This document shows, piece by piece, positions 847-56,556 of a DNA stretch of 64,000 nt. Position 1 is the stretch's first letter, and every line of letters starts with the position of its first letter. The notes beneath the pieces were generated by a model that worked only from the letters and a program-made list of their open reading frames with translations, did no database searches and was not told where the DNA came from. This DNA is from a candidate division WOR-3 bacterium (GTDB lineage: Bacteria; Hydrothermota; Hydrothermia; LBFQ01; DSFT01). The DNA lies in the NCBI GenBank assembly GCA_039802865.1, contig JBDRXL010000002.1:39826-103825 (forward strand). The letters run 5' to 3'. A program made the translations under genes and the position numbers.

Positions 847-1993
<1,147 letters not shown>

Positions 1994-2030
1994 AGTTTTG
2001 AAATTTTAAAGGATATAGTAATTAAAGCTT

Positions 2031-2699
2031 TCATCTTGTTAACTTTTTGAAAGTTTCAAGTAATTTTTCAATTGTTTTAACCTTGTTACTCTCTTCAAGC
2101 CTTTTATTAGTAATTACAAATGTACCATCGGTATCAACCTCGGCAATAGCCCTTCCTTTTTTTGCCGGCTTTTTTAAAGTCAGATCTCCATCCTCGTCTA
2201 AGGTTACAAAGAAAACTCTTATATTAGCAGTAGTAGGGCTAGCTTTAAGCTTAACATTCCAATAGCCCGTTTGTGCAATTCTTTCTCTTAAAGTTGCTTT
2301 TGAAGATATAATAGCAATTGGTTTACACTTTTTAGGCTCATAAACAACCAAATCGGCATCTGGCAAATGCATTCCGAACTCACCAAAATCTACTACACCA
2401 AGTTTGTTATCCGCTTTTTCTAATTTTGATCCCTTTATTACCTCAAACCCTATTTTTCTTAACTCTTCCACTATATAATCCAGGATAACGTCTTCTAACA
2501 ATTTTCCTTTAAAAGGCTTCCAAGATTGTTCTGGGTCCTTTATTCCAAATTTTACTATTTCCTTTACATATCTTTGTCTTATTTCTTTAAGTATTTTTGA
2601 AAGATTTTTCATACCTTCTTTTTTTAGCCTTTCTTTTACGTATTGTTTCAGCTTTTTTATATACTTACTTCTCTTATCTTTCATAGCTTCTCCATTCAA
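2031..2699 (-). CDS. Putative type II restriction endonuclease (PD-(D/E)xK)
   Basis: ...VDFGEFGMHLPDADLVVYEPKK... contains a D-x(n)-E-x-K nuclease core; start overlaps the stop of the upstream DNA methyltransferase (translational coupling); no other recognisable family. Confidence 0.5.
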   Translation of the reverse strand: MNGEAMKDKRSKYIKKLKQYVKERLKKEGMKNLSKILKEIRQRYVKEIVKFGIKDPEQSWKPFKGKLLEDVILDYIVEELRKIGFEVIKGSKLEKADNKLGVVDFGEFGMHLPDADLVVYEPKKCKPIAIISSKATLRERIAQTGYWNVKLKASPTTANIRVFFVTLDEDGDLTLKKPAKKGRAIAEVDTDGTFVITNKRLEESNKVKTIEKLLETFKKLTR

Positions 2700-3813
2700 T
2701 TTTCAAATTACCAAAATTCTGTTTTTTATGTTCTTTTTTTACAATTATCAGATATTTAAATCCTCTAAGATAGAAGTTGTGTTGAATAGCTTTACTGTGC
2801 CAGAAAGGTGTATTTGAAGATTGATTGCGCCTTACAACGCAGATTATATCAACCGGTTGAAAATATTTCGTAAGTCTTTCATAAACTTTAAAACCCACAG
2901 GTATAAAAGTTTTTTTTGCCCACTGATCACCTATAAGCCAGGCTAAAACCTTGCCGTATTTCAAAATCCTATAACATTCTTGCATAACCTTTTCAAGTTC
3001 ATCATAAAATTTTTCATCACTTGCAGGGATATTACCTATATTAAGTGGATGCTCATTATACTTTATATTATCTCCATAAGGAGAGTCTATAAAAATCATA
3101 TCAACAGAATTATCTTTAAGAGGTAATTTCCTTGCATCTGCTTGAATAATATCTGGTCTGGTTGGGACTATATCAAATGCTATTACTCTTCTCCTTTCTT
3201 CCTTACAAACATCAATTGTAGTCCCTGAACCAGCCATAGGATCGCATACTAAATCATTAGGTTCTGTATATCTGTGAATTAAATTATATATTATGAAGGC
3301 TGGGGTCACACCTGGATATTTATTGTTACCTTTTGGTTTATCTCCGTAACTCTGTGTTGGAAAATCCCAGAGTGTAGTTGAAAAAATTGGAGGTCTAAAA
3401 TTTTTTTCAACAAGACCACTTATATTCTTACTTAATGTCAAATTCTTATTTTCCAAAATTTTAGAAAGTACTTCTACCCCCCTCTCAGATAATATATCTC
3501 TCCAAGAAATTTTTAATTTTCTAAAAACAATACTTGCATTATTTAACTTCTTTATTTCTGTTTTTGGTTGCACTTTTACAAAATAAGGATATCTTCCATT
3601 AAAAAGTGGAATTGAGTTATCATATTGTCCATCAGTCGTAGATATGAATGTTCCATAAAGTATGTCTGTATCTATATTATATAAGAAGACGAAGTCATCT
3701 TTTCTTATTGCAAGCACCTTATAACCATAAACTTTATTTGTCGCAAAAATTAAATTATCAAGCATTTCTTTTTCACTTTTTTTAGTGCAAGCGAATATAA
3801 AACCTCTCCTCAT
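2674..3813 (-). CDS. DNA (amino) methyltransferase with N-terminal DCD/YTH-like PUA-fold domain
   Basis: Motif I region YPGVTPAFIIYNLIHRYTEPNDLVCDPMAGSGTTIDVC resembles the C-terminal block of N6_N4 methylases; motif IV FIDSPYGDNIKY lies 43 aa downstream. N-terminal ~130 aa (GFIFAC...VFLYNIDTDILYGTFISTTDGQYDNSIP...YPYFVKVQ) matches the DCD/YTH PUA-like pattern. Confidence 0.65.
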   Translation of the reverse strand: MRRGFIFACTKKSEKEMLDNLIFATNKVYGYKVLAIRKDDFVFLYNIDTDILYGTFISTTDGQYDNSIPLFNGRYPYFVKVQPKTEIKKLNNASIVFRKLKISWRDILSERGVEVLSKILENKNLTLSKNISGLVEKNFRPPIFSTTLWDFPTQSYGDKPKGNNKYPGVTPAFIIYNLIHRYTEPNDLVCDPMAGSGTTIDVCKEERRRVIAFDIVPTRPDIIQADARKLPLKDNSVDMIFIDSPYGDNIKYNEHPLNIGNIPASDEKFYDELEKVMQECYRILKYGKVLAWLIGDQWAKKTFIPVGFKVYERLTKYFQPVDIICVVRRNQSSNTPFWHSKAIQHNFYLRGFKYLIIVKKEHKKQNFGNLKIEWRSYER

Positions 3814-4952
3814 ATTTTTGAAAACCTCTCAATTAACTCATAATAATAATTTTCAATCTCTTTACTAACCGCTTCCCAACTATATTTTTTAATAACAATA
3901 TCATAAGCATTTTCAACTAATCTATTTGCTAAATTTTTATTTCTTAAAAGCATTATAATTTTACTTGCTAAATCCTTATAGTTTTCATTTTCAAATAGAA
4001 TTCCATTTACCTCATTTTGAATAACTTGTTTATAACCTTCTATATTTGATGCAATAACAGGAATTTTTGAAGCCATTGCTTCAAGCAAAACAATACCAAA
4101 ACTTTCTTTTTCAGTAGCAGGTGATACAAAAATATCACAACTTACATAATACTTTGGAAGCTCATTATATCCAACTTTACCCACAAAAATAACTTTATCT
4201 TCTATATTTTTATTTAAATACTGCTCATATAAAAGCTTAAATGGACCATCTCCTACAACTATTAATTTAACATCTGAAATAAACTTTACAACCTCATTTA
4301 AAGCCAATAATAAATACTTTAATCCTTTTCTTGGCTCAATTCTTCCAACAAATAGAATTTTCTTTGAATTATCTTCCAAAAGCCAAGGAATTTTTTCATT
4401 ATCAGGTTTAAAGCGATTGACATCTACACCATTTGGAATAATTCTATATTCTCCATCAAAATACTTAATAATACTCCTTTTGGCAACTTCTGAAACCGCA
4501 ATTTTACCGTGAAGCTTTTTAAAATAATTCTCTAAATATCCCTTAAAAATTTTATAAAGTAGCATTTCATCATGTGCTGCATGAAATGTAGCAACATTAA
4601 TAGATTTAGAATACTTTAAGGACAAAATTGGAAGAACTGGTGCTATTGGTCCGTGAATATGAATAATATCATAATTATTTTTTTGAATAATATCTTTTAC
4701 AAGTTTGTTTAATTTTGCTGAAATAGTAATCGGTGCCATTGATTTATTCATAGGAATTTTAAAAGCTCTTCCTACCCTTATAACATAATCTGGATCCTTA
4801 TAATCAATACCAGAACTAAAATTTGCTGTTAAGATATAAGTTAAATGTCCCCTCTTTCTTAAATACTTTGCTAAACTATCTATATGCTCACTAATTCCAC
4901 CTGGATGTGGATAAAACACATCTGAAACAAATAAAATTTTTAAATTTTTCAT
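3810..4952 (-). CDS. Glycosyltransferase family 4
   Basis: GT4 fold signature (N-terminal HPGGISEH, C-terminal E...FGIVLLEAMA motif). Confidence 0.8.
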   Translation of the reverse strand: MKNLKILFVSDVFYPHPGGISEHIDSLAKYLRKRGHLTYILTANFSSGIDYKDPDYVIRVGRAFKIPMNKSMAPITISAKLNKLVKDIIQKNNYDIIHIHGPIAPVLPILSLKYSKSINVATFHAAHDEMLLYKIFKGYLENYFKKLHGKIAVSEVAKRSIIKYFDGEYRIIPNGVDVNRFKPDNEKIPWLLEDNSKKILFVGRIEPRKGLKYLLLALNEVVKFISDVKLIVVGDGPFKLLYEQYLNKNIEDKVIFVGKVGYNELPKYYVSCDIFVSPATEKESFGIVLLEAMASKIPVIASNIEGYKQVIQNEVNGILFENENYKDLASKIIMLLRNKNLANRLVENAYDIVIKKYSWEAVSKEIENYYYELIERFSKI

Positions 4953-5785
4953 TTTCCTCTACTTGCTAAAATAAATCCAACAATTCCAATTATAATAGCA
5001 ATGATTGAAAATATATGAGCTATTCTAATGCCCAAAAATGTATCTGTATCAAATCTTTGAAATTCAATAAAAAATCTAATAATTCCATAATTTAAAATAT
5101 ATAGTGAAAGAATTTGACCATCATTTTTATAAAATTTATCCCTAAAATAAAGCAAAAACACAAAATTAATATAATTTAATATGCTTTCATACCAAAATGT
5201 AGGATGGAAATATTCATAATTTTCAAAACCTTTAATGCGATTTTCATAAGGTATATAAATTGCCCAAGGAACATCACTTGGAGGACCATATGCTTCTTTA
5301 TTAAAGAAATTTCCCCATCTACCAATTGCTTGACCAAGTGCTAAATAAGGAATAATAATATCAGCAAGTTTTAAAAAATTCCACTTTTTAATTTTTGCAA
5401 TAATATAACCTGAAATTAATCCCCCTATTATTCCACCATAAATAGCAAGACCACCATGCCAAACTGCAATAATCTCAAATGGATTTTTTGAATAATAATC
5501 CCAATTTGGAATTACATGATAGATTCTTGCCCCAAGAATAGCAAATATAATTACCCAAAATGCAGCATCTTCAAACTCCTTATAATTTACATTTATATTA
5601 AATTTCTTAAAGTCATATCTCAAAAAGTATAGAGCTAAAACAATAGCTATTACATACATTAAACCATAATAGCGAATTTGAAGTGAGCCAATAGTAAAAA
5701 TAACGGGATTAATATTTAAATCCTTTAATGTAAAGTATAAAACAAATTCTAAAACAAGTCCAAAAATTAAAATTAAGAGGAACAT
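4949..5785 (-). CDS. lgt: Prolipoprotein diacylglyceryl transferase
   Basis: Multi-TM protein with Lgt signature ...HPTFWYESILN... and GRWGNFFN motif. Confidence 0.85.
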   Translation of the reverse strand: MFLLILIFGLVLEFVLYFTLKDLNINPVIFTIGSLQIRYYGLMYVIAIVLALYFLRYDFKKFNINVNYKEFEDAAFWVIIFAILGARIYHVIPNWDYYSKNPFEIIAVWHGGLAIYGGIIGGLISGYIIAKIKKWNFLKLADIIIPYLALGQAIGRWGNFFNKEAYGPPSDVPWAIYIPYENRIKGFENYEYFHPTFWYESILNYINFVFLLYFRDKFYKNDGQILSLYILNYGIIRFFIEFQRFDTDTFLGIRIAHIFSIIAIIIGIVGFILASRGK

Positions 5786-6510: not shown

Positions 6511-6583
6511 GGGCCCGTAGCTCAAGTGGCAGAGCAGCGGACTCATAATCCGTGGGTTGTAGGTTCGAGTCCTACCGGGCCCA
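6511..6583 (+). tRNA. tRNA-Met (anticodon CAU; could alternatively be a lysidine-modified tRNA-Ile2)
   Basis: Cloverleaf read by eye: acceptor GGGCCCG/CGGGCCC, D-arm GCTC...GAGC, anticodon loop CUCAUAA, T-arm GTAGGTTCGAGTCCTAC, discriminator A; no encoded CCA; TTTAAAATTT element 9 nt upstream. Confidence 0.85.
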
Positions 6584-6602
6584 TATGCTTTGGTTAATAA
6601 GT

Positions 6603-6842
6603 ATGATGATCGTTGATAAGAATATCGCTAAAATTGCAGATGGTTATTATACTTTGACAATTAAGGGTAAAGCAGATGGTGTATATGTTGCTAATGTTTT
6701 AAGAGGAAAGGCAAGTGGTAATAGCTGTGAAATCCCTCTTATGAACTTGAAATTTGATGTAGAAGGAACAGTTCAAGAATGTATATACAAACCTACAAAT
6801 AATTTAAACGAGTTTAAAGTAGTTATAAAGTATAGAAAGTAA
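6603..6842 (+). CDS. Hypothetical small protein (~79 aa; alternative start 6585)
   Basis: ORF-track start (6552, GTG) lies inside the tRNA and is rejected; first plausible in-frame ATGs are 6585 and 6603; no recognisable domain. Confidence 0.35.
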   Translation: MMIVDKNIAKIADGYYTLTIKGKADGVYVANVLRGKASGNSCEIPLMNLKFDVEGTVQECIYKPTNNLNEFKVVIKYRK

Positions 6843-25876: not shown

Positions 25877-26571
25877 TGTTTTCTAATCCTTTTTATGTAT
25901 TATTAGTTTTTATTTTTTCTATTACAACAGTTAATATCCTGAAAGTCGTTATAAATTACGATAATTATAAACAAGTAATGGTAAATCAAATGGAACAAAA
26001 TTTAGAAGAAATCAAAGAAAATTTAAAAAAGCAAGATTTAACATATGAAGAAAAGGAGAGAAGATTAGAGAATTATAGAAAAATTTATTTAATGTCAATC
26101 TCTTTACCTATTATTGTTCTTTCAAATATCGCTTTTGGTATATTTTTACTTCCAATTATTATGTTGGTTCAAGCATTTGCTTTTAGTATGTTATTTTTTA
26201 TATTTCCAAATTCTTATAAGGGTTATAATTTTAAGAAGTTATTTCTAATTTTGATTTATTCTAAAACAGCAATTCTCTTAGGTGCATTTCTTTCACTTAT
26301 CTTTTCAATAATTTATCAAAATCCGACATTTTCGTTTAACTTTTCAAATTTTATTCCCTATGAATTTGTTTCACATAATAGTTATTTAAAAGCTATAAGA
26401 AATACACTTTATCATATTGAACCATTTTCTATATTAAGCTTGATATTACTTATATTTGGACTAAATAAAGCTTTTGATTTTGAAATAAAAAAAGCAGTTA
26501 TAGGAGTTTTTGGAATTTTTATTATATTTTTGATATTAAATGCATTATTCTTTTTATTGTTCTTTAAATGA
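25876..26571 (+). CDS. Polytopic membrane protein of unknown function, translationally coupled to the caa3 operon
   Basis: Start overlaps coxC stop; ~5 TM segments; no recognisable motif. Confidence 0.4.
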   Translation: MFSNPFYVLLVFIFSITTVNILKVVINYDNYKQVMVNQMEQNLEEIKENLKKQDLTYEEKERRLENYRKIYLMSISLPIIVLSNIAFGIFLLPIIMLVQAFAFSMLFFIFPNSYKGYNFKKLFLILIYSKTAILLGAFLSLIFSIIYQNPTFSFNFSNFIPYEFVSHNSYLKAIRNTLYHIEPFSILSLILLIFGLNKAFDFEIKKAVIGVFGIFIIFLILNALFFLLFFK

Positions 26572-27509
26572 AGCGTTTTGTTTTTATATTACTTTTTTCT
26601 TGTTCTAAAATTGATATAGTTCCTAAAATTCAATTAAGTCCAAATCCTTCACAATCAAATAGTTATGTAAATATCCTTCTTGATATTCCAGATACTCTTA
26701 AAAGATATGATAAGTATATTTCAATACACTTTATATATTCCAATTCTGAGGAGAGAAAAGTTATAAAGTTAGCTAATACTAACTTATATCAACTTTATTT
26801 GCCTGAAAGTTTAATAAACTATTCTGTTTATCTTATTATAGATACATTTACTATAAGGCTTGAAGGTATTAGAGTTTATGAAGGTTCAAAGCCTAAACAA
26901 AACACATTTTTTATTTCATCAAAATATGAAAAAATTGATAGTCAAAAAATAAAATTATTAAAAGCGGAACTTGAAAATTACCCAAATAATATAAAAGCAA
27001 AAGCTTATTATGATTGTCTTAAAAATGAAAAAACAGATACTTCTCAAATATATGAGCTTTATTATAATATCTGCAAAAATCCAAATAATTACAAAAATAT
27101 ATTAAAGGCTATTGAATATGGTGATAGTTCATATGAATTTTTATTTAAGGCTTCATTTATTTCAGATACAATTCTTGATATTGCATCTAAGAAGTTTAGT
27201 GATGATATGGAGCTTCAACTATTAAAACTTAAAAAATTGAATGAAAAAAAGAGATTTAATGAAAGTATTATTCTTTCTGATTTTTTAGTAAAAAATTTAA
27301 ATATGGAATGGTTATATAAGTTTTATCCACATTTAAATTATAAGGAAAGAAGAAATAAGTTTTTTGAAGTATTTTCAGAGATATATAAGCAAAAGGCATT
27401 AGCACATTTAAATTTAAATGATAGTGTAAATTATAAGAAAAACTTTTATATATATTGCTTAAATTACCCATTTGTGGAAAAAAATGAAGAATGTAAAGAT
27501 GTCAAATAG
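26568..27509 (+). CDS. Hypothetical lipoprotein
   Basis: Lipobox LLFSC; last codons ...CKDVK* are part of the 32-bp repeat duplicated upstream of gyrA. Confidence 0.4.
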   Translation: MKRFVFILLFSCSKIDIVPKIQLSPNPSQSNSYVNILLDIPDTLKRYDKYISIHFIYSNSEERKVIKLANTNLYQLYLPESLINYSVYLIIDTFTIRLEGIRVYEGSKPKQNTFFISSKYEKIDSQKIKLLKAELENYPNNIKAKAYYDCLKNEKTDTSQIYELYYNICKNPNNYKNILKAIEYGDSSYEFLFKASFISDTILDIASKKFSDDMELQLLKLKKLNEKKRFNESIILSDFLVKNLNMEWLYKFYPHLNYKERRNKFFEVFSEIYKQKALAHLNLNDSVNYKKNFYIYCLNYPFVEKNEECKDVK

Positions 27510-27523
27510 AACTTTAAAATTTT
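27492..27523 (+). repeat. 32-bp direct repeat, copy 1 (TGTAAAGATGTCAAATAGAACTTTAAAATTTT)
   Basis: 30/32 identical to 30009..30040; includes the promoter element. Confidence 0.85.
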
Positions 27524-27526
27524 CTA

Positions 27527-29365
27527 ATGTATTATTGGTATTTTAAATTGTTTAATAATATAAAAAGTGAGCATGAGGCAAATGAGTTAGCAAAGATTGA
27601 ATTGGAGAGTTTATTTGGTAAGGTAGAGCCGATTTTTAATTTTGCAGATAGATTGTGCGAAGAGCCATTGCGTATATTCATGAGTATGCCCGAAAGATTA
27701 CAAGATTATATAATTCATGAATTGCCATATGGTAAAATACAAGGTTATTTTGCAAAATCACATGAATTGAAAAATTTGAATAAATTAGTAAAGAGATTGG
27801 CATATACTCGGGAAATTTATGTTGTTTTAAAGCTTGATTCACATAAACCAATTGAAGACTTAAAAGATATTATTTTCTCGGAAGGTGTTTTAGGTAAGAA
27901 TTTTCAATATTTCAAGGCAAAGGACTATGTGTGCATAAGAGCTATAACTCATCAATATTTTTTAGAAAAATCTGAGTATATATCAAAATTAAGTAGGAAT
28001 GAACAAGAGATAGAAAGAAATGTAAAGATATTATTTTCCTATTTGACAGAAAAGCTTTATCGTATTCCTGCTTCTGTTACTTTGAGTATCGGAAAACGTT
28101 TAGAGGATTATTTCACTATTAGAGAAGAACCTTCTCTTTATCTTACACATTACTTTCATCCATATAAAGGTAAATTTCATCCAAAAATGGTAAGAGCATT
28201 AATAAATTATATATATCCTTCTGACAAAGGAATTTTGCTTGATAATTTTGCAGGAAGTGGAACTTCATTGGTTGAGGCAGTTTTGATGGAGCTTGATAGT
28301 AAAGGAGTGGAAATAAATCCGCTTTCTGCTTTAATGTGTAATGTAAAAACGAGATCATTAATTTTAAATTTTAATCAATTAAAGGAAGAAATATATAATT
28401 ATTTTGAGGAGGTAAAATTTGCTCTTTCAATATATGAGTCTATGAAGAAGGGTCAATTGTTACTACAAAAAAGTAATATAAACTTTGATATAATTAGACA
28501 AAAAGTTTTTACTCTTTCAAGTAATCTGAAAGGTTATTTAAAGAGGGATAGTGAAATAATTTCACAAGTTTTAATATTTAGAGAAATTTTAAGTGCTATA
28601 AAAGATGATGAGGTTAAAAATTTTCTATTGTTAGTATTGAGTGGAACTATTAGTGATGTTATAAGAAGGAAAAATGGGAATTTTTTATCCTTGTTTGAAG
28701 AAAGATTAAAGGAGCTTTATTTGAGATTGTTCCTTTTTCAGGAATTAAATAAAGTTTTAAAAATTAATGTTGGAAAATCTGAGACTTATGTTTGTGATGC
28801 AAGAAATATGGAAGAATTTGTTGAAACGGAAGAAATAGACGGTATAGTTACATCTCCACCTTACTCTGTTGCGTTGGATTATATAAAAAATGACTTTCCC
28901 CAACTGGTACTTTTGGAATTGGTTGAATCTATTGATAAGTTAGAAAAAGCTATGATTGGAAATCCCAGGGCAACATATAATAAGGAATTACTCTTCACTT
29001 ATGATAAAACTATTTTACCCAAAATTGCAGAAGATGTTTTAAATATTCTTTTTAGAAATGGAAAGGAAAAAGAAGGATTGCGTAGTTTAAAATTTTTTAT
29101 TGATATGTTTAAATCCTTGAAGGAGATGTATAGAGTTCTTAAAAGAGGAAGCTATTGTGTTATTGTGATAGGTAATAATCATTTTTCTGTGGATGGAAAG
29201 GTTATTGAAATTCCAAATGATAAAATTATCTTGGAGTTGGCAAGTAGTATTGGTTTTGTTCAATGTAAGTTTATAAAGCGAGAATTAGAAAAGAGTAGTG
29301 AAGGTAACATCAAGGAAGAAAGTATCATAATTATGAAAAAAGGAGGTAGTATAAGTGGGGGTTAA
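27527..29365 (+). CDS. Putative DNA amino-methyltransferase (N6A/N4C), 612 aa
   Basis: Motif I LLDNFAGSGTSLVEA and motif IV DGIVTSPPYSVALDY ~200 aa apart; large N-terminal extra domain. Confidence 0.55.
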   Translation: MYYWYFKLFNNIKSEHEANELAKIELESLFGKVEPIFNFADRLCEEPLRIFMSMPERLQDYIIHELPYGKIQGYFAKSHELKNLNKLVKRLAYTREIYVVLKLDSHKPIEDLKDIIFSEGVLGKNFQYFKAKDYVCIRAITHQYFLEKSEYISKLSRNEQEIERNVKILFSYLTEKLYRIPASVTLSIGKRLEDYFTIREEPSLYLTHYFHPYKGKFHPKMVRALINYIYPSDKGILLDNFAGSGTSLVEAVLMELDSKGVEINPLSALMCNVKTRSLILNFNQLKEEIYNYFEEVKFALSIYESMKKGQLLLQKSNINFDIIRQKVFTLSSNLKGYLKRDSEIISQVLIFREILSAIKDDEVKNFLLLVLSGTISDVIRRKNGNFLSLFEERLKELYLRLFLFQELNKVLKINVGKSETYVCDARNMEEFVETEEIDGIVTSPPYSVALDYIKNDFPQLVLLELVESIDKLEKAMIGNPRATYNKELLFTYDKTILPKIAEDVLNILFRNGKEKEGLRSLKFFIDMFKSLKEMYRVLKRGSYCVIVIGNNHFSVDGKVIEIPNDKIILELASSIGFVQCKFIKRELEKSSEGNIKEESIIIMKKGGSISGG

Positions 29366-29996
29366 AAAGAGAATAATTGAAGGACCGGAGATAAAAATTT
29401 CTGAGCCTATAGGGCGCTTTGAGATTGTAAGAAAAGTGGTCTCAACTTTTATTGATTTTGAAAAAGATAAAAAAGGAAAGGGTATTGAATTTCGTTATCC
29501 TGTTGAAAATCTATCTATTGGTGATAAACTTTATATTCATAGACCAGGAATTAAATGGAATTTTGATTTTAAGGTAGAAGTTTTTCCAAGGTTTGGCCTT
29601 CAAGATGGAAAGCATGAACAAATTGCTTTAATTTTAAGGAAAATTAAAAGGACAAATAAAGAAGAATTTAGCAAACTTTGGAATATGATTTGTCAGTTGT
29701 ATCACTGTTCAAATAATGATGTAGATCTGCTTTTAAGAATGAACCGCATTTCAATAAGTAATCCCAAACCTGATATTTTATTGAAGGTTATAAAATGGTT
29801 ATTTATTATGGAGGATATAGTTTATTGGCACTATGAGGGTAGAGCGTTTTTATATAACTTTTTCTTATATGTTATAAGTGAGAGAAACACTAAACAACTT
29901 AGTGATATTTTATCTCAATTTAAAAAAAGAAAGGCAAAACCTGAAAAAATAAAAAAGCTACTTGAAGAATTAGGGATAAATTGGGAATTACCATAA
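29355..29996 (+). CDS. Hypothetical protein translationally coupled to the methyltransferase; candidate restriction endonuclease or specificity partner
   Basis: Start overlaps MTase stop by 11 nt; no recognisable domain. Confidence 0.3.
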   Translation: MGVKKRIIEGPEIKISEPIGRFEIVRKVVSTFIDFEKDKKGKGIEFRYPVENLSIGDKLYIHRPGIKWNFDFKVEVFPRFGLQDGKHEQIALILRKIKRTNKEEFSKLWNMICQLYHCSNNDVDLLLRMNRISISNPKPDILLKVIKWLFIMEDIVYWHYEGRAFLYNFFLYVISERNTKQLSDILSQFKKRKAKPEKIKKLLEELGINWELP

Positions 29997-30046: not shown

Positions 30047-33000
30047 ATGGAAAAGCACATAATTTCAGATTTTGAAGAGGAATTAAAAGAAAGTTATTTA
30101 AAATTTGCTTTAAGTGTTATAATAAGCAGAGCCATACCAGATGCAAGAGATGGTTTAAAACCTGTTCAAAGAAGAATTCTCTATGCTATGTATGATATGG
30201 GTTTATTGCCAAATAAACCATTTAGGAAATCTGCTACGGTTGTTGGTGAAGTAATTGGAAAGTATCATCCCCATGGAGACCAAGCAGTATATGATGCATT
30301 AGTAAGATTGGCTCAGGACTTTCATATGCGATATCCACTTATAGAAGGTCAAGGAAATTTTGGTTCTATTGATGGAGACCCACCTGCCGCATATAGGTAT
30401 TGTCTTACAGGTGATGCCCTTGTTATTACAAATAAAGGATTAAAAAGAATAGATAGAATTGCCAATAGTGAAGATATTAAAAACTTAGGATTTGAAATTT
30501 TATCATTTAATAAAAAGATAAATAAAATTAGTAAATGGTTTGATTCTGGCATACACCCAGTTTTTGAAATTAGGACAGTGAGAGGATTTTCATTAAAAGG
30601 CACTTCAAATCATCCAATTTTAATTTTTGATAAAAGTTCTAAAAAATTTATTTGGAAAACAATAAGTGATATTCAATTTGGTGATTATGCAGTTATTGAT
30701 ATATCAACAGATTATCTTTTTAATAAAGAAGAAGCAAAAACTCTTTCAAAATACCTAAGGAAAGTTTTTAAAGAAAATAGTAATATTGTTAATAGTCTTG
30801 AAAATCCTAAAATTATATTATATTCAGCAAACTTTGACTTTTTAAGTCAAATTCAAGTGCTTCTTTTAAGGTTTGGAATTATAAGTAATATTACAAAAAA
30901 TCAATTAGTAATAAACTCTTTTGAAAATCTACAAAAGTTTTATAAGTTTATAGGTTTTGAAGATAAAGAAAAAAGTTATCAGTTAAGAAAAATTTTAAAT
31001 TCTTTTAAGGGGGAAATTTTTGAATTTAAAAATGGTTATTTAATTGAGCCAATTGTGAGGAAAAAATTTTTAGGTTTTGATAGGGTATATTCTATAAAGG
31101 TTGAGAGTGATTGTCATTCATTTGTTGCTAATGGTTTTATAAATCATAATACAGAAGCACGCTTAGAAAAAATTTCCTTAGAATTGTTAAATAATATAGA
31201 AGAAGATGTAGTAGATTTTGTAGATAATTTTGATGGTAGATTTAAGGAGCCAGTATTATTGCCAGCAAGCTTTCCAAACCTTTTAGTAAATGGTGCAGTT
31301 GGTATAGCGGTTGGTATGGGAACAAGTATTCCACCACATAATTTATCCGAAGTAATTGATGGAACAATTGCATTAATAGATAATCCAAATATTACTATTG
31401 AAGAATTAATGAGATATATAAAAGGTCCTGATTTTCCTACGGGTGGAGTTATTGTAGGTAAGAAAGGAATTTATGAAGCATATAAAACAGGTAAAGGAAA
31501 AATTACTGTAAGAGCAAAATATGAAGTTGATGATAAAAGTATAATAATTAAAGAAATCCCTTATCTTGTAAATAAGGCTGAACTTATTAGTAAAATTGCA
31601 CAACTTGTAAGAGATGGCGTTATTGAAGGAATTTCTGATATTAGAGATGAGTCTGATAAGGATGGTCTTAGAGTTGTAATTGAAATAAAAAGAGGTTATG
31701 AAAGTCAGATTGTTTTAAATCAATTATTAAAGCATACGAAACTTCAAGATACATTTGGCATAAATATGATTGCTATTTTAAATAATCAACCAAAAACATT
31801 TAACTTAAAAGAATTACTTGAAGTATTTATTAGTTTTAGACAAGAAGTTGTTATAAGGAGAACACAATTTAGATTAAATAAAGCAAAGGCAAGAATGCAT
31901 ATTCTTGAAGGATTTTTAAAAGCCCTTGATAATTTAGATGATATTATTCAAATTATTAGAGGTAGTGAAGATGTTCAAATAGCAAGAAAAACACTTATTG
32001 AAAAATATAATTTTACAATTGAACAAGTAAATGCAATATTAGAGCTTAAATTACAAAACTTAACAAAACTTGAAAGAGAAAAAATTTTAAGTGAGTATAG
32101 AGAGCTTGAAAAAGATGTTAATTATTATCAAACACTTCTTACTAAAAGAGATGAGTTATTAAAACTTATAAAGAAGGAATTATTGGAAATTAAGGAAAAA
32201 TATGGGGATAAGAGGCGAACTTTAATTACTGAAAAAGATGAGGTTAGTTTTGAGATTGAGGATTTAATTCAAAAGGAAGAAACAGTAATTTTAATTACAA
32301 AGAATGGTTATATAAAGAGAATGTCATTAAAAAGTTTTAGAACACAAAATAGAAATACAAAGGGTAAAACAGGCATTAAAACTTATGAAGATGATATACC
32401 ATATAAAATTGTTATAGCAAATACTCATTCACAACTTCTCTTTATAACAAATAAAGGTAGAATGTTTTGGACAAAAGCATATAAAATTCCTGAAATGGGT
32501 TTAACAAGTAAGGGTAAATCTATAAATAATTTCTTTACATTAAATCAAGATGAAAGAATTGCTGATATACTACCTAATGAGGATGCAAGATATATAGTTA
32601 TTATTACAAAAGCTGGAAGGTTAAAAAGGGTTAGTTTAGATGAAATCTCAAAGGGAAGAATGGGTTCTCAAATTATTAAGTTGAAAGATAATGATGAAGT
32701 AGTAAAGGCTTTATTAACACTTGGTGAGGAAGATATTTTAATAGCAAAAGAAGATGGAAAGGTTGTAAGAATAAAACAAAGTGAAATTCCAATTCAAAGT
32801 AGGAAAGGAAGTGGTGTTAAGGGGGTAAAGGGAAAGGATGTTATTTCAGGGTGCATTATATTGCCAAATTCAAAAGTTATAACTATTACGGAAAGAGGTT
32901 ATGGTAAAAAGGTTAAAGAAGAGGAAATTCCAGCATTAAGAAGAGGAGCAAAGGGTATTTATATAATAAAGGCAAGGGAAAAAATAGGTAAGTTAATTGC

Positions 33001-33172
33001 GGTTGTTGATAGTATTCAAGAGAATGAAAATTTACTTATCATTACAAAAAATGGTTTAGCATTAAGAATAGATATTTCTAATTTAAATGAACTTTCAAGA
33101 AACGCTGGCGGAGTTAAATTAATTAATTTAGAAGAAAATGATTTAGTTAGTGCAGTGGGGGTGGTAAGATGA
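30047..33172 (+). CDS. gyrA: DNA gyrase subunit A, interrupted in-frame by a 250-aa intein (exteins 30047..30400 and 31151..33172)
   Basis: GyrA blocks: QRRILYAM, active-site AAYRY then, after the intein, TEARLEKIS; C-terminal beta-pinwheel repeats. Confidence 0.9.
30401..31150 (+). other. GyrA mini-intein (250 aa) inserted after the catalytic Tyr
   Basis: Begins CLTGDALV (block A), GTSNHPIL (block B), ends [22 protein letters not shown] (blocks F/G) followed by +1 Thr; same site and high similarity to Mxe GyrA intein; central ~110 aa retains only a degenerate DOD block ([13 protein letters not shown]). Confidence 0.85.
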
Positions 33173-53937: not shown

Positions 53938-56556
53938 CTAACTCCTAAATAACACCTTAAAAACTTTCTTTTTATTATCTATTCTCATTTTTACAATATA
54001 AATTCCAGTCTTTAAATTCCTAATTTCAAGCTCATAATAACCTTTTGATAAGTAATTTTCATAACTTTCTATAACCCTTCCACTTATATCGTAAATTTTA
54101 TATTCAACTTTAGAGGGTTTTTCAAGATTTAAAATTAATGCCAACTTTTTATTTTTTACTAAATAGTTAATTTCTCTGATTTTTGTAGCATTACATTTTA
54201 TGCTATCAGTTGAAGCAAAAATAATATAAGTTAAGGATAAGCTATCATTTGGATTTAAGTTATAGGGTCCTGCTGAAACAACAACAGAATAATCATTTGG
54301 ATTTAAATTTATGCTATCTCCGAGTGTTCCATTTAATAAATTGAACTTATTTGACTTAGTAAATTGAATATTATTTTGGAAAATTCTTGCACTTCTAAAT
54401 ATACCGTTTATCAAAAATAAACCTACAAAATAGTTATAATCATTTGATTTAAATACAATCCCCCCATATGAATTACTACATTTCAAAGCCCATCCAAAAT
54501 CATTATTTGAATTTTTAATATCAAAATCTGCAAAAATCCCAAATAACAAATTATTTATAGAGTTGTTGCTTATATTTTTAATTTTATAAACTAAATAAAT
54601 TAAACTATCTAAGCTTTTGCCATAAAAATTGCCTGTAACTTCAATATTGCTATCCCTTGCTATAAACTTATAATTTTCATCAGGATATTCAAAAATTCTA
54701 TATATTCCATAAACATTAAAAATATCTTTTGAACCATAGAAATTATCACTTAAATAATTTTCTGAGTTTCCAAAAGCAATTGAACCAAAATATAATAAAT
54801 TTGAACTATCTTTTGGAAAATGAAATTCTTTTAATTCTCCATTATTTGAGAAATAAAGTGAGCTAATCGTAGTGTCAATTATTGCTGTTCCAATGGGAAT
54901 TTCTCCAAAAATCACTTTAAATTTATATATTTTTCCAGAAATGTTTAATTGGAAAATTGCGCTATCTCCATCATTTATATTATTTGTTGAAAATTTAAAT
55001 GTATCACCAATACTAAAAGCGTTTATTTCAAATTGTGGGTCAAGATTTCCAAAATAAATAGAATCTTTTAAGATATTAACAAAATTTGAATTGGTTGAGA
55101 TTTTTGCATAAACATTTTTTAATGTATCATAACCAGCATTTCTAATTTTAATATCTACAAAAACTGTTTCATTACTTTCAATTTTTCCATTTCCATTCTT
55201 ATCATAAATATACTTATCAATAAAAACTAAATAAGCACTATTTCCATAATTTATATTTTCAATAGCTTTTAAGGCATTTATTCTACCCCATCCGCAATTA
55301 TTATTAGGCCAATTTACTTCATTACAATTTCTATCATTTGCAATATCTGTTAAAATTTGATATATTTGATAATAACTTAGGTTTGGATTTTTTTCAAGCA
55401 TAAGGGCAATTGTTCCAGCTACATGAGGTGAAGCCATAGATGTTCCATATCCATCTGCATATAATCCGTTTCTAATGGTGGAATAGATTTTATATCCAGG
55501 AGCCATAATATCTGGCTTTATATAATTCCAATCAGATCTTGACCAATAAGATGTATCATTGTATGGAGGATTATTAGGGGCGGGTCCTCTACTTGAAAAA
55601 TTTACTACTGTATCATTAAAATCAACCGCTCCTACGGTTATTACCATTGGATAATCACCAGGACTATAAATTGTGCTTGAATTTGGACCACTATTGCCTG
55701 CTGCAAAAACAGGAATTATATTATTTGCTCTCCAACCGTTCCATATTGCATTCCAAAGCCAAGGGTCATTTCCTGGTTTTTTTCCCCATGAATTATTTAT
55801 TATTCTAATGTCAATTCCATAAATTGCTTTTAATTCTGAAAAAAATTCAATACAAGATAAAATAGAATAACTATCACCTGCCCCATATTTATTAAATGCT
55901 TTACAAGCAATAACTTTTGCTCCTGGGGCAACTCCTACATTTGAATCCGCTACCATTGTTCCAATAGTATGTGTTCCATGATTATGGTCATCATAAGGAT
56001 AATTTTGATAATTTATAGCATCAAGCCAATAGCTTAAAATTTTACCTTTTAAAGCGGGATGACTTGTATCTACACCCGTATCAATACTTCCAATAATAAC
56101 TCCCCTTCCTTTTATATTATACTTAATCCATACACTATCTGCTTTAATTAGCTTAATACCATATGTTGGGGTATCAAGTAAAATTTTGCTTTCATTTTCA
56201 AAATTTGAAATTATATAAAAATTATCCTTTGCATAATAAATTTTATCAATTTCAGCTCTATCTTTTAATTTTTCTAAGTCTTTTACTTTTATTTTAACAT
56301 AAATTGCATTTATAACCCAAAATTGCTTTATTTTCTCAACATTTAATGTTTTTAAAAAATTTAGTAAATTCCTTTGACTATTAAAATGATAGTTTTTAAG
56401 AAGTTGAACATTATAAAATGCATTATTAGAAGGTTCTTTTATAACCTTTTTGTCTTTGAGAACTATTAGCACATCAACAAAGTCATCATCCCTAAGGGTT
56501 CTTATTTTTTCTAAAAGTCTCTCATCAAAATTAAAACTAAAAATTAAGCCAATCAT
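53938..56556 (-). CDS. S8 (subtilisin-like) serine peptidase with T9SS-type C-terminal sorting domain
   Basis: Catalytic triad segments GSIDTGVDTSHP, HGTHTIGT, GTSMASPHVAG; C-terminus ...LKTGIYIVKMRIDNKKKVFKVLFRS. Confidence 0.85.
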   Translation of the reverse strand: MIGLIFSFNFDERLLEKIRTLRDDDFVDVLIVLKDKKVIKEPSNNAFYNVQLLKNYHFNSQRNLLNFLKTLNVEKIKQFWVINAIYVKIKVKDLEKLKDRAEIDKIYYAKDNFYIISNFENESKILLDTPTYGIKLIKADSVWIKYNIKGRGVIIGSIDTGVDTSHPALKGKILSYWLDAINYQNYPYDDHNHGTHTIGTMVADSNVGVAPGAKVIACKAFNKYGAGDSYSILSCIEFFSELKAIYGIDIRIINNSWGKKPGNDPWLWNAIWNGWRANNIIPVFAAGNSGPNSSTIYSPGDYPMVITVGAVDFNDTVVNFSSRGPAPNNPPYNDTSYWSRSDWNYIKPDIMAPGYKIYSTIRNGLYADGYGTSMASPHVAGTIALMLEKNPNLSYYQIYQILTDIANDRNCNEVNWPNNNCGWGRINALKAIENINYGNSAYLVFIDKYIYDKNGNGKIESNETVFVDIKIRNAGYDTLKNVYAKISTNSNFVNILKDSIYFGNLDPQFEINAFSIGDTFKFSTNNINDGDSAIFQLNISGKIYKFKVIFGEIPIGTAIIDTTISSLYFSNNGELKEFHFPKDSSNLLYFGSIAFGNSENYLSDNFYGSKDIFNVYGIYRIFEYPDENYKFIARDSNIEVTGNFYGKSLDSLIYLVYKIKNISNNSINNLLFGIFADFDIKNSNNDFGWALKCSNSYGGIVFKSNDYNYFVGLFLINGIFRSARIFQNNIQFTKSNKFNLLNGTLGDSINLNPNDYSVVVSAGPYNLNPNDSLSLTYIIFASTDSIKCNATKIREINYLVKNKKLALILNLEKPSKVEYKIYDISGRVIESYENYLSKGYYELEIRNLKTGIYIVKMRIDNKKKVFKVLFRS

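What the first reader, a model, noticed from the sequence alone, without database searches (positions are those of the whole stretch)
2031..3813. R-M pair inside the lgt-glycosyltransferase operon; methyltransferase carries an N-terminal DCD/YTH-like PUA-fold domain
Four minus-strand genes (lgt, GT4, methyltransferase, endonuclease) have overlapping stops and starts and a single promoter upstream of lgt. A restriction-modification pair is therefore co-transcribed with lipoprotein biogenesis. The MTase N-terminal ~130 aa (GFIFAC...FVFLYNIDTDILYGTFISTTDGQYDNSIP...YPYFVKVQ) matches the DCD / YTH-EVE class of PUA-like modified-base readers. DCD is usually regarded as plant-specific. A reader-domain fusion suggests modification-state sensing. 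The downstream 222-aa protein has a PD-x(n)-ExK core (LPDADLVVYEPKK) but no family I can name.
Basis: partly seen in the sequence, partly recalled or inferred. Interest (0 to 1): 0.65.

Follow-up and report, generated by a model that had tools for sequence, protein, structure and literature searches.

The report
Restriction-modification cassette with reader-domain methylase
A small mobile two-gene bacterial defence unit (a DNA methylase with an extra "modified-base reader" domain, plus a CCGG-type restriction enzyme) has landed inside a housekeeping operon of a hot-spring bacterium; this gene layout was already published in 2020, and here the restriction enzyme is decaying.

Summary
Four minus-strand genes (lgt, GT4, methyltransferase, nuclease) have overlapping stops and starts. 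The methyltransferase N-terminus passes Pfam's DCD threshold and folds confidently as an EVE/YTH-type PUA-like barrel.

The interpretation needs correcting:
- The 222-aa protein belongs to a named family, the BsaWI/CCGG-family Type IIP restriction endonucleases. Its catalytic lysine is K129 in SSK, followed by an R-E-R CCGG-recognition motif.
- Prokaryotic DCD-methyltransferase fusions followed by a PD-(D/E)XK nuclease were described by Bell, Wolf and Koonin (2020), so DCD is not plant-specific and the architecture is known.
- The link to lgt is accidental. The pair is a ~1.8-kb cassette inserted between GT4 and ytxH-gap. A related WOR-3 genome has the empty site, and other copies sit in unrelated contexts.
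- The window's nuclease allele lacks a whole conserved helix through a 30-bp in-frame deletion. Sibling strains add a 43-bp frameshift.

Related systems use the same methylase without DCD, so DCD is an accessory module whose ligand is untested. Verdict: a new member of a known kind, of modest interest.

The parts
4949..5785 (-). lgt (prolipoprotein diacylglyceryl transferase), first gene of the host operon
   Evidence: Pfam LGT E 5.8e-74, TIGR00544 223 bits. Its stop overlaps the GT4 start (ATGA, 4949-4952).
3810..4952 (-). GT4-family glycosyltransferase, a native partner of lgt
   Evidence: Glycos_transf_1 E 3.9e-45. lgt-GT4 adjacency is kept in three related WOR-3/Hydrothermia genomes that lack the R-M pair next to it.
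2012..3830 (-). Inserted ~1.8-kb R-M cassette (boundaries accurate to about 20 bp)
   Evidence: blastn against the empty site in L016: window 5831-3831 matches L016 5121-7122, and window 2011-858 matches L016 7138-8287. The insert replaces 15 bp. Homology to independent cassette copies runs only from window 3811 to 2041.
2674..3813 (-). DCD-methyltransferase fusion gene (379 aa)
   Evidence: Pfam Dev_Cell_Death + N6_N4_Mtase. More than 120 homologue clusters share this architecture.
3451..3813 (-). DCD / EVE-YTH-like PUA-fold domain (residues 1-121)
   Evidence: PF10539 40.3 bits (GA 27.8). [quoted passage not shown] Foldseek prob 1.00, TM 0.6-0.69 to PH1033, MJECL36, YTH domains and VcaM4I. 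Invariant residues T10, Y29, L44, N46, D48, G54, F56, Y75, P76.
3394..3450 (-). Linker (residues 122-140)
   Evidence: No regular secondary structure after residue 121, and pLDDT falls to 74 in the block of residues 121-130. The region is poorly conserved and variable in length in alignment A4.
2677..3393 (-). Amino-methyltransferase catalytic domain (residues 141-379), circularly permuted relative to classical beta-class enzymes
   Evidence: Against PDB 2zie, query 154-224 aligns to chain 203-274 (motif I region) and query 232-298 aligns to chain 36-101 (motif IV region). PF01555 matches in two stretches. Stand-alone DCD-less homologues of 228-276 aa exist.
3217..3243 (-). Motif I, DPMAGSGTT (SAM binding)
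   Evidence: Direct reading. Nearly invariant in 34 sequences.
3073..3087 (-). Motif IV variant, DSPYG (catalytic), aligned to SPPY of 2zie
2031..2684 (-). BsaWI-family (CCGG-family) Type IIP restriction endonuclease gene, 217-aa allele lacking 10 conserved residues
   Evidence: PF18643 E 1.3e-27. NCBI names it 'BsaWI family type II restriction enzyme'. Profile versus 4zsf E 0.01. The model of the full-length allele matches BsaWI, PspGI, PfoI, NgoMIV, Kpn2I and SgrAI.
2490..2531 (-). EQSWKPFKG...E64: minor-groove contact segment and first catalytic acid
   Evidence: Aligns to BsaWI E80-N81-S-W-K84-K85...E92. Q53, S54, W55 and E64 are invariant. BsaWI K85, the outer A/T reader, is P57 here.
2352..2366 (-). 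LPDAD: catalytic D109, equivalent to BsaWI D145
2280..2306 (-). SSKATLRER: catalytic K129 (BsaWI K165) and R133-E134-R135 CCGG-recognition motif (BsaWI R169-D170-R171)
2397..2398 (-). Junction of a 30-bp in-frame deletion. It removes ECLSKVKRSI, one whole helix carrying invariant K103 and R104.
   Evidence: Alignment with the full-length allele P0123/L007. Invariance of K103/R104. Helix H96-105 in the AF2 model.
2465..2507 (-). 43-bp segment, intact here, deleted out of frame in sibling assemblies L001-L004
2022..2030 (-). AAGCTTTAA directly after the REase stop. It is identical to the last codons and stop of GT4 at the empty site, so it is probably a relic of the insertion. CTTTAA recurs 11 bp further on.
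   Evidence: Direct comparison of window and L016 sequences.
847..1993 (-). ytxH (1820-1993) and gap (847-1839), downstream host genes now separated from GT4 by the cassette
   Evidence: Pfam YtxH E 1.9e-10 for the 57-aa ORF; the 330-aa ORF carries Gp_dh_N and Gp_dh_C in the sibling contigs. In L016, ytxH starts 11 nt after GT4.

Best explanation
A minimal, horizontally mobile Type IIP restriction-modification cassette has inserted between GT4 and ytxH-gap in one lineage of thermophilic WOR-3 bacteria. The cassette is the two coding sequences and nothing else.

**Nuclease.** It is a BsaWI/CCGG-family PD...K enzyme that should cut unmethylated sites with a CCGG-type core. The flanking specificity is unknown.

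**Methylase.** It is a permuted N4/N6 amino-methyltransferase that protects those sites, probably by making m4C (inferred). It has acquired an N-terminal DCD (EVE/YTH-like) domain. DCD-less versions of the same enzyme serve the same nuclease family, so the domain is an accessory.

**Likely role of DCD (inference).** The most likely role is binding a flipped, already-methylated base. This would hold or activate the enzyme on hemimethylated host sites, giving a maintenance bias.

**Expression.** The cassette brings no conserved promoter. Its ATG overlaps the GT4 stop, so it is probably expressed by read-through of the host operon (inferred).

**State in this window.** The nuclease has lost a conserved helix, and sibling strains are frameshifted. 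The system is therefore decaying towards an orphan methylase.
For: **Shown: nuclease family.**
- Pfam RE_BsaWI 96 bits and the NCBI name.
- Profile hit to 4zsf with E64/D109/K129/R-E-R aligned to BsaWI E92/D145/K165/R-D-R.
- Foldseek top hits are all CCGG-family enzymes.

**Shown: methylase.**
- PF01555 83.5 bits.
- Permutation seen against 2zie.
- The two best PDB sequence matches are a putative modification methylase carrying an SPPY motif IV (2zie) and annotated cytosine-N4 enzymes (8s9m and 8s9n).

**Shown: DCD fold.**

**Shown: mobility.**
- Empty site in L016.
- The same pair at 77-82% identity in unrelated contexts, and in Thermodesulfovibrio yellowstonii.
- Homology between copies is limited to the two ORFs.

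**Shown: DCD is an accessory.** Of 80 REase loci, 13 (+1 truncated) have DCD-MTase upstream, 51 have a DCD-less homologue downstream, and none of those 51 has DCD anywhere.

**Shown: integral co-evolution.** Mean identities are DCD 61.5%, MTase domain 83.8% and REase 63.0%, with r 0.87-0.96 across 16 copies.

**Shown: REase decay.**
- The 10-aa deletion removes a helix with invariant K103/R104.
- The segment aligns to the BsaWI region holding the tetramerisation residues E128/R130.
- A 43-bp frameshift lies on the same background in L001-L004.
- These are the only indels in about 12 kb of 99.7-99.9% identical DNA in seven of the ten sibling contigs. L008 and L009 have a few 1-2-bp differences inside strongly diverged tracts.

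**Published precedent.** Bell et al. 2020, PMC7641849.
Against: - No activity, methylation motif or ligand has been measured for any member.
- Motif IV is an unusual DSPY, so the base type (m4C or m6A) is not settled.
- BsaWI's second catalytic acid (D175) aligns to T139, and its outer-base reader K85 aligns to P57. The exact site and part of the active site are therefore unassigned.
- WCCGGW is not avoided in the window beyond the general CCGG depletion: 4 observed against about 3.8 by Markov expectation.
- The 10-aa-deleted nuclease may retain activity, for example as a dimer. BsaWI tetramerisation mutants still cut slowly.
- Co-transcription rests only on gene overlaps, and the promoter scan is uninformative.
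- The maintenance-reader role of DCD is inferred from fold analogy alone.
Confidence: 0.72

Rival explanations
1. The Bell-Wolf-Koonin reading. The nuclease attacks DNA that already carries some other modification. The DCD domain finds that modified DNA, and the fused methylase adds a supplementary methyl group that protects it.
For: This is the only published proposal for the architecture. EVE, YTH and DCD relatives are typically sensors in modification-dependent (Type IV) systems. The genome holds at least one other DNA methylase (27527-29365).
Against: The nuclease is an ordinary CCGG-family Type IIP homologue with the conserved R-E-R motif that reads unmodified CCGG. The same nuclease family works with DCD-less methylases in 51 of 80 loci. 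The pair moves as a self-sufficient two-gene unit between phyla.
Confidence: 0.1
2. The DCD domain is not a modified-base reader here. It acts as a DNA-binding or target-recognition module (a TRD surrogate or clamp) for a very small catalytic domain.
For: The catalytic module has only about 40 residues between motifs I and IV and a short C-terminal tail, so there is little room for a TRD. DCD divergence tracks REase divergence most closely (r 0.96), as might be expected of a specificity element.
Against: DCD-less homologues of 228 aa serve the same nuclease family, so sequence recognition does not need DCD. All characterised structural neighbours bind flipped modified bases.
Confidence: 0.15
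3. DCD is an autoregulatory sensor. It reads the methylation state of a site near the cassette's own promoter or start and tunes methylase and nuclease expression, like the N-terminal regulatory domains of some Type II methylases.
For: One homologue (P0119) adds an HTH_17 domain in front of DCD. In DCD-carrying cassettes the gene order is switched to M then R, with overlapping genes and no C-protein.
Against: No conserved upstream DNA is shared between cassette copies. In the window the cassette has no upstream region of its own. No CCGG site lies near the start: the nearest are at 2853 and 2165.
Confidence: 0.07
4. The gene is an RNA methyltransferase with a PUA-like RNA-binding domain, as in several PUA-containing RNA-modifying enzymes, and the neighbouring nuclease is unrelated.
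For: There are weak hits to UPF0020, Trm14 and TIGR01177 RNA methylase models (E 1e-5 to 3e-3, far below their cut-offs). PUA-type domains are common in RNA enzymes (own knowledge).
Against: The PF01555 DNA-methylase score is well above threshold, and PADLOC Type II MTase models reach E 1.8e-24. The DCD-MTase gene lies directly upstream of a BsaWI-family nuclease gene in all 13 complete class-A loci. The pair is mobile as a unit.
Confidence: 0.03
5. The placement inside the lgt-GT4 operon is functional: defence is coupled to envelope or lipoprotein biogenesis.
For: Stop/start overlaps link all four genes. GT4 gives a hit to the 'GT4-conflict' Pfam family (32 bits).
Against: A related genome has lgt-GT4-ytxH-gap with no R-M genes. 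Other cassette copies sit next to UvrD-type helicase-nuclease genes, a beta-CASP gene or radical-SAM genes. GT4 scores far higher on generic GT4/GT1 families.
Confidence: 0.03

Closest known systems
DCD-methyltransferase + PD-(D/E)XK nuclease neighbourhoods of Bell, Wolf and Koonin 2020 (BMC Biol 18:159, PMC7641849)
   Same: An N-terminal DCD domain fused to a Rossmann-fold methyltransferase, followed by a PD-(D/E)XK nuclease gene, found mostly in thermophilic prokaryotes.
   Different: The paper does not name the nuclease family or the methylase class, and it proposes supplementary methylation of already-modified DNA. Here the nuclease is shown to be a BsaWI/CCGG-family Type IIP enzyme, and the methylase to be one branch of a family that otherwise lacks DCD. 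I could not confirm from the text or supplements that this exact family is the one they drew.
BsaWI (W^CCGGW) and the CCGG family of Type IIP/IIF restriction enzymes (NgoMIV, Cfr10I, Bse634I, SgrAI, PspGI, Ecl18kI, PfoI, Kpn2I, AgeI)
   Same: N-terminal helical domain plus a PD...K catalytic domain. E, D and K catalytic residues and a contiguous R-(D/E)-R recognition motif sit at aligned positions. BsaWI is the best fold match.
   Different: Only about 14% identical to BsaWI and 45 residues shorter. BsaWI K85 (outer A/T reader) and D175 (second acid) are not conserved. PspGI and PfoI (CCWGG / TCCNGGA) match about as well structurally, so an interrupted core cannot be excluded. The window allele lacks one helix.
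Modification-dependent (Type IV) enzymes with PUA-superfamily sensors: EVE-HNH VcaM4I, YTH-McrB, SRA-type enzymes
   Same: The same reader fold, used in a DNA defence context.
   Different: Here it is fused to the protecting methylase of a classical Type II pair.
UHRF1 (SRA domain) recruiting DNMT1 in eukaryotic maintenance methylation (own knowledge, analogy only)
   Same: A PUA-superfamily base-flipping reader coupled to a DNA methyltransferase, which would favour hemimethylated sites.
   Different: Separate proteins, 5mC chemistry, eukaryotic chromatin. There is no homology beyond the superfamily fold, and no evidence yet that the DCD domain binds hemimethylated DNA.
Beta-class N4/N6 amino-methyltransferases of PF01555 (for example TTHA0409 in 2zie, M.PvuII, M.RsrI, DpnA)
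   Same: Shared motif I and motif IV regions. Best PDB sequence match is 2zie at E 1e-9.
   Different: The motif order is reversed (I before IV, about 40 residues apart), motif IV reads DSPY instead of (S/D)PPY, and there is a DCD domain at the N-terminus.

Membership tests
BsaWI family / CCGG-family Type IIP restriction endonucleases (PF18643) | Scores above the curated Pfam threshold | tested here: met
   96.3 bits against a cut-off of 26.2, E 1.3e-27. NCBI names identical proteins 'BsaWI family type II restriction enzyme'.
BsaWI family / CCGG-family Type IIP restriction endonucleases (PF18643) | PD...K active site: equivalents of BsaWI E92, D145, K165 | tested here: met
   E64, D109 and K129 align to them and are invariant in 22-32 homologues.
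BsaWI family / CCGG-family Type IIP restriction endonucleases (PF18643) | Second acidic residue after the catalytic lysine (BsaWI D175 / NgoMIV E201) | tested here: inconclusive
   The aligned position is T139, and W142 sits at the NgoMIV-E201 position. Other invariant acids exist (D163-E164-D165, E182, D184, D186) but could not be placed without coordinates.
BsaWI family / CCGG-family Type IIP restriction endonucleases (PF18643) | R-(D/E)-R motif four residues after the catalytic lysine, reading CCGG | tested here: met
   K129-x3-R133-E134-R135, invariant, aligned to R169-D170-R171.
BsaWI family / CCGG-family Type IIP restriction endonucleases (PF18643) | Fold of the CCGG family | tested here: met
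   Model pLDDT 90.5. Foldseek hits: 4zsf E 9.5e-5, then PspGI, PfoI, NgoMIV, Kpn2I, SgrAI.
BsaWI family / CCGG-family Type IIP restriction endonucleases (PF18643) | W^CCGGW specificity (BsaWI K85 reading the outer A/T pair) | tested here: not met
   K85 aligns to P57, which varies as P/A/S/T in the family. The flanking specificity is therefore unknown.
BsaWI family / CCGG-family Type IIP restriction endonucleases (PF18643) | Complete conserved core in this window's allele | tested here: not met
   The 10-aa helix with invariant K103/R104 is missing.
BsaWI family / CCGG-family Type IIP restriction endonucleases (PF18643) | Cleaves unmethylated DNA at its site | not testable with these tools
   Needs enzyme assays.
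N6/N4 DNA amino-methyltransferases (PF01555) | Scores above the curated Pfam threshold | tested here: met
   83.5 bits against 26.7. PADLOC MTase_II E 1.8e-24.
N6/N4 DNA amino-methyltransferases (PF01555) | SAM-binding motif I and catalytic motif IV (D/N/S)PP(Y/F) | tested here: inconclusive
   Motif I DPMAGSGTT is present and nearly invariant. Motif IV is the variant DSPY(G), aligned to SPPY of 2zie, and is nearly invariant in the family.
N6/N4 DNA amino-methyltransferases (PF01555) | Beta-class order (motif IV, then TRD, then motif I) | tested here: not met
   The order is I then IV (residues 191-199 and 243-247), a circular permutation relative to 2zie.
N6/N4 DNA amino-methyltransferases (PF01555) | Methylated base and motif | not testable with these tools
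   m4C is favoured only by inference: the two best PDB sequence matches are a putative methylase with an SPPY motif IV (2zie) and annotated cytosine-N4 enzymes, the site core is CCGG, and the host is a thermophile.
DCD domain (PF10539), PUA-like superfamily | Scores above the curated Pfam threshold | tested here: met
   40.3 bits against 27.8, residues 4-92. The same annotation is precomputed for nearly all 120 listed homologues.
DCD domain (PF10539), PUA-like superfamily | [quoted passage not shown] | tested here: met
   AF2 secondary structure. Foldseek prob 1.00 to PH1033, MJECL36, YTH domains and VcaM4I.
DCD domain (PF10539), PUA-like superfamily | Signature motifs GxIFxC(T/N), (L/V)FL(F/Y)N...LxGxF, YPxxV | tested here: met
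   GFIFACT, FVFLYN...LYGTF and YPYFV are present, and their key residues are invariant in 34 sequences. The plant motifs are recalled from my own knowledge of the family.
DCD domain (PF10539), PUA-like superfamily | Binds a modified base | not testable with these tools
   I found no experimental ligand for any DCD domain.
DCD-MTase + PD-(D/E)XK nuclease cassettes (Bell et al. 2020) | DCD N-terminal to a Rossmann methyltransferase, with a nuclease gene immediately downstream | tested here: met
   The same layout is seen in 13 of 13 complete class-A metagenome loci and in L011, L013 and L102.
DCD-MTase + PD-(D/E)XK nuclease cassettes (Bell et al. 2020) | Occurrence mainly in archaea and (hyper)thermophilic bacteria | tested here: met
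   The host contig encodes a reverse gyrase. Named hosts include WOR-3, Kryptonia, Aquificaceae, Thermodesulfovibrio and Ignavibacteria.

The most novel reading that the evidence does not exclude
The DCD domain reads the methyl mark written by its own catalytic domain, most likely N4-methylcytosine, for which no dedicated reader domain is known to me. This would make the enzyme prefer hemimethylated sites. It would be a prokaryotic, single-polypeptide counterpart of the eukaryotic SRA-reader/DNMT1 maintenance pair. Such a bias would lower the chance that incoming phage DNA is methylated before it is cut. It might also explain why DCD-bearing cassettes do without the second methylase seen in most DCD-less relatives.
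Probability: 0.2. Interest if true: 0.7.

Novelty: new member of a known kind. Interest (0 to 1): 0.3.

Why it matters
As filed, it matters little. Both gene families are curated, and the fusion architecture was published in 2020.

What the analysis adds is context that makes the open question testable:
- The nuclease partner is a classical CCGG-family Type IIP enzyme.
- The same methylase exists naturally with and without the DCD domain.
- A cultured carrier exists (Thermodesulfovibrio yellowstonii).

No DCD domain, plant or prokaryotic, has a known ligand. This small two-gene system is probably the simplest place to find one.

The allelic series is also a clean natural example of a restriction gene eroding while its methylase persists: full-length, then a helix deletion, then a frameshift, all in >99.5% identical genomes.

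Tried and rejected
- **Promoter and terminator scan.** It found 32 promoter-like sites against 33 expected, so it is uninformative in this 28% GC DNA.
- **Restriction-site avoidance.** CCGG is depleted (11 observed against about 26 expected). However, CTAG, GTAC, GATC and TCGA are depleted more, and WCCGGW equals its Markov expectation. This is not diagnostic.
- **Single-sequence search of the nuclease against PDB sequences.** It found nothing. A 22-sequence profile was needed to reach 4zsf.
- **Bell et al. supplements.** They do not list the DCD-methylase accessions.
- **Viral carriage.** There was one partial 37% hit in IMG/VR and only weak BFVD fold matches, so there is no evidence of phage transfer.
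- **Short MTase call in L010.** The 363-aa methylase is a gene-calling difference; the DNA is identical.
- **NPPY ORF at 53941-56613.** It is a subtilase, not a methylase.
- **GT4 'conflict-system' Pfam hit.** I rejected this as a defence link because lgt-GT4 is native and exists without the cassette.
- **RNA-methylase reading.** I rejected this on score and context.
- **Small 89-94-aa ORF upstream of two cassette copies.** It is conserved only between those two, has no family, and is absent from the window.


Full report
**1. What is in the sequence**

The minus strand of window 847-5785 carries six consecutive genes:

| Gene | Coordinates | Note |
|---|---|---|
| lgt | 4949-5785 | |
| GT4 glycosyltransferase | 3810-4952 | |
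| methyltransferase | 2674-3813 | 379 aa |
| ytxH-like ORF | 1820-1993 | 57 aa |
| gap | 847-1839 | |

- lgt/GT4 and GT4/MTase share ATGA overlaps.
- MTase and nuclease overlap by 11 nt when the nuclease starts at ATG 2684. That start has a GGAG 5 nt upstream and matches the MKDK N-terminus of homologues.
- Pfam assigns LGT, Glycos_transf_1, N6_N4_Mtase plus Dev_Cell_Death, and RE_BsaWI, all above the curated thresholds.
The 'single promoter' is not checkable: the consensus scan returns 32 sites against 33.1 expected by chance, although its best minus-strand hit does lie just upstream of lgt.
- The source is a candidate division WOR-3 MAG whose contig also encodes a reverse gyrase, so it is a thermophile.

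**2. The nuclease**

A profile of 22 homologues reaches the BsaWI crystal structure sequence 4zsf (E 0.01). It aligns residues with the roles given in the BsaWI paper (PMC4652773):

| Residue here | BsaWI equivalent |
|---|---|
| E64 | E92 |
| D109 | D145 |
| K129 | K165 |
| R133-E134-R135 | R169-D170-R171 (CCGG-reading motif) |

- All these residues are invariant in the family.
The true pattern is the CCGG-family variant PD...(S)xK.
- An AlphaFold model of the full-length allele (pLDDT 90.5) finds BsaWI first, then PspGI, PfoI, NgoMIV, Kpn2I and SgrAI.
- Two BsaWI residues are not conserved: K85, which reads the outer A/T pair, is P57 here, and the second acid D175 is T139. The core of the site is probably CCGG (an interrupted CCNGG core is not excluded), and the flanks are unknown.

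**3. The methyltransferase**

- Residues 141-379 are a PF01555 amino-methyltransferase (83.5 bits).
- Motif I (DPMAGSGTT, residues 191-199) lies before motif IV (DSPYG, residues 243-247). Against PDB 2zie the two halves align in swapped order, so this is a circular permutation of the classical beta-class layout.
- The best PDB sequence matches are a putative modification methylase with an SPPY motif IV (2zie, E 1e-9) and annotated cytosine-N4 enzymes (8s9m and 8s9n, about 4e-6), ahead of adenine enzymes (about 3e-4).
- With a CCGG core and a thermophilic host, m4C is the most likely product. This is an inference, and the DSPY variant leaves it open.

**4. The N-terminal domain**

- Residues 4-92 pass Pfam's DCD threshold (40.3 against 27.8 bits).
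- Its best PDB matches, all at probability 1.00 and TM 0.6-0.69, are the EVE-type proteins PH1033 and MJECL36, YTH m6A readers and the EVE-HNH enzyme VcaM4I.
- Invariant residues are T10, Y29, L44, N46, D48, G54, F56, Y75 and P76. They coincide with the DCD signature motifs.

**5. It is already described**

Bell, Wolf and Koonin (BMC Biol 2020, PMC7641849) state the following:
- Prokaryotic DCD domains occur mostly in archaea and hyperthermophilic bacteria.
- They belong to the PUA-like superfamily.
[quoted passage not shown] I found no later experimental work on a DCD ligand. In the protein databases, almost all of the 120 best-matching homologue clusters (58-100% identical) carry the same two Pfam domains. 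They come from WOR-3, Kryptonia, Ignavibacteria, Aquificaceae, Thermodesulfovibrio, Elusimicrobiota and others. A single-sequence exhaustive search with the domain alone finds 173 cluster representatives among 1.84 billion. The supplements do not let me confirm that this exact BsaWI-linked family is the one the authors drew.

**6. The link to lgt is an insertion accident**

- A related WOR-3 genome (L016, GT4 86% identical) has lgt-GT4-ytxH-gap-IDH with only 11 nt between GT4 and ytxH.
- blastn places the insert at about window 2012-3830, replacing 15 bp.
- AAGCTTTAA, the 3' end of GT4 at the empty site, survives directly after the nuclease stop at 2022-2030.
- Copies of the pair at 82% and 77% identity lie in other WOR-3 genomes next to UvrD-type helicase-nuclease genes or a beta-CASP gene. 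A 63% copy in Thermodesulfovibrio yellowstonii lies next to radical-SAM genes.
- Homology between copies begins at the methylase ATG and ends just before the nuclease stop. There are no shared flanks, repeats or integrase.
- The cassette is embedded in the host operon, lgt-GT4-[M-R]-ytxH-gap, rather than appended to it. It is probably expressed by read-through (inferred).

**7. DCD is an accessory on one branch of a larger R-M family**

I fetched 80 metagenome loci encoding BsaWI-family nucleases and scored them with home-made HMMs:

| Class | Loci | Layout |
|---|---|---|
| A | 13 (+1 truncated) | DCD-methylase directly upstream of the nuclease; nucleases 52-60% identical to the window's |
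| B | 51 | nuclease followed by a strongly homologous methylase (E about 1e-110) with no DCD domain |
| undetermined | 15 | mostly limited by short contigs |

- Of the 51 class-B loci, 37 also have a second, larger SPPY-type methylase upstream.
- The catalytic module therefore works without DCD.
- Across 16 DCD-bearing copies the three modules co-diverge (r 0.87-0.96). DCD (61.5% mean identity) evolves at the nuclease's rate (63.0%), while the catalytic domain is much more conserved (83.8%).
- That pattern fits an integral, co-inherited part of the enzyme rather than a shuffled or fast-evolving sensor.

**8. The nuclease is eroding in this population**

- Every other family member, including a 227-aa allele that is otherwise identical (P0123), has ten residues, ECLSKVKRSI, that the window lacks through a 30-bp in-frame deletion at about 2397/2398.
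- In the model these residues are one complete helix (96-105). K103 and R104 are invariant in 32 sequences.
- The segment aligns to the BsaWI region carrying the tetramerisation residues E128 and R130.
- Four sibling assemblies carry the same deletion plus a 43-bp frameshifting deletion (window 2465-2507) that splits the gene into 60-aa and 149-aa ORFs.
- In seven of the ten sibling contigs, over up to 12 kb of 99.7-99.9% identical DNA, these are the only indels. L008 and L009 also have a few 1-2-bp differences inside strongly diverged tracts.
- The methylase differs by at most one residue (T153R). Six of the ten siblings were retrieved by exact methylase match, so for those six its identity is by construction.
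- The order of events (helix loss first, frameshift on that background) suggests the window allele is already impaired. This is an inference.

**9. Mechanism**

- *Shown:* gene families, folds, catalytic and recognition motifs, mobility, accessory status of DCD and nuclease erosion.
- *Inferred:* m4C at a CCGG-core site, read-through expression, and the role of DCD.
- I favour DCD binding the flipped methylated base of a hemimethylated site, which would bias the enzyme towards maintenance. All characterised structural neighbours bind flipped modified bases, the domain is dispensable for catalysis and recognition in relatives, and it co-evolves steadily with the system.
- The published alternative (supplementary methylation of otherwise-modified DNA that a modification-dependent nuclease would cut) fits poorly with a classical CCGG-family Type IIP nuclease that also pairs with DCD-less methylases.
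- A TRD-surrogate role and an autoregulatory role remain possible.

**10. Verdict**

The finding is a new member of an already published architecture, sitting in the lgt operon by chance and carrying a decaying nuclease. Interest is modest (0.3). The residual value lies in the unanswered question of what any DCD domain binds. This compact system, with its natural DCD-less controls and a cultured carrier, would be a good place to answer it.

Noticed in passing
window 26568-29996 (+): There is a second Type II DNA methylase at 27527-29365 (612 aa, PF01555, motif I DNFAGSGTS then TSPPY, with a long insert between). It is 25% identical (E 2e-26) to the extra 'M2' methylase of DCD-less BsaWI-type systems. 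It is flanked by unassigned ORFs of 313 aa (26568-27509) and 213 aa (29355-29996, 11-nt overlap). This may be a second R-M pair with an unclassified nuclease.
   Followed up: partly
window 30047-33172 (+): The gyrA gene is interrupted by an intein with a LAGLIDADG homing-endonuclease domain (Intein_splicing at residues 127-368).
   Followed up: no
window 6511-6583 (+) and L008: A tRNA-Met gene lies here, and a spurious 96-aa ORF (6552-6842) overlaps its 3' part. In sibling contig L008 dense sequence divergence begins at about 6588, directly after the tRNA. This may be a variable or integration-prone spot.
   Followed up: no
L050 2686-5316, L049 3980-5475 and about 50 other metagenome loci: DCD-less relatives of the system have the order (M2)-R-M1. 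An SPPY-type 422-aa methylase lies upstream, then the BsaWI-family nuclease, then a minimal 228-276-aa methylase with the same DSPY motif. Presence of DCD coincides with absence of M2 and with the methylase moving upstream of the nuclease.
   Followed up: partly
L011 7712-7996 and L013 7729-7998: A helical 89-94-aa ORF lies directly upstream of the cassette in two WOR-3 copies. The two are 74% identical to each other and have no Pfam or NCBIfam family. The ORF is absent from the window and from other cassette copies.
   Followed up: partly
L017 3928-4028: In a Candidatus Hydrothermia MAG, the sequence directly after GT4 contains two copies of a CRISPR-like repeat (GTTTCAATCCCTTATAGGAACGATAAAAAC) separated by a spacer-sized stretch. 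A different element therefore occupies the same position downstream of GT4.
   Followed up: no
L009, equivalent to window 5531-5740: The 5' part of lgt in one otherwise >99% identical sibling is strongly diverged, with dozens of substitutions in 200 bp. This suggests a recombination tract.
   Followed up: no
window, whole 64 kb: Several short palindromes are strongly under-represented relative to Markov expectation: CTAG 0.16, GTAC 0.18, GATC 0.36, TCGA 0.40, CCGG 0.42. GTATAC is absent (7.5 expected) and CTTAAG occurs once (15.8 expected). This hints at past or present R-M pressure on other sites.
   Followed up: no
L003 3099-8510: In one sibling contig, gap is followed by two large ORFs (1021 and 780 aa) with no Pfam hit, instead of the isocitrate dehydrogenase gene seen in the window and the other siblings. 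This is a local rearrangement or insertion.
   Followed up: no
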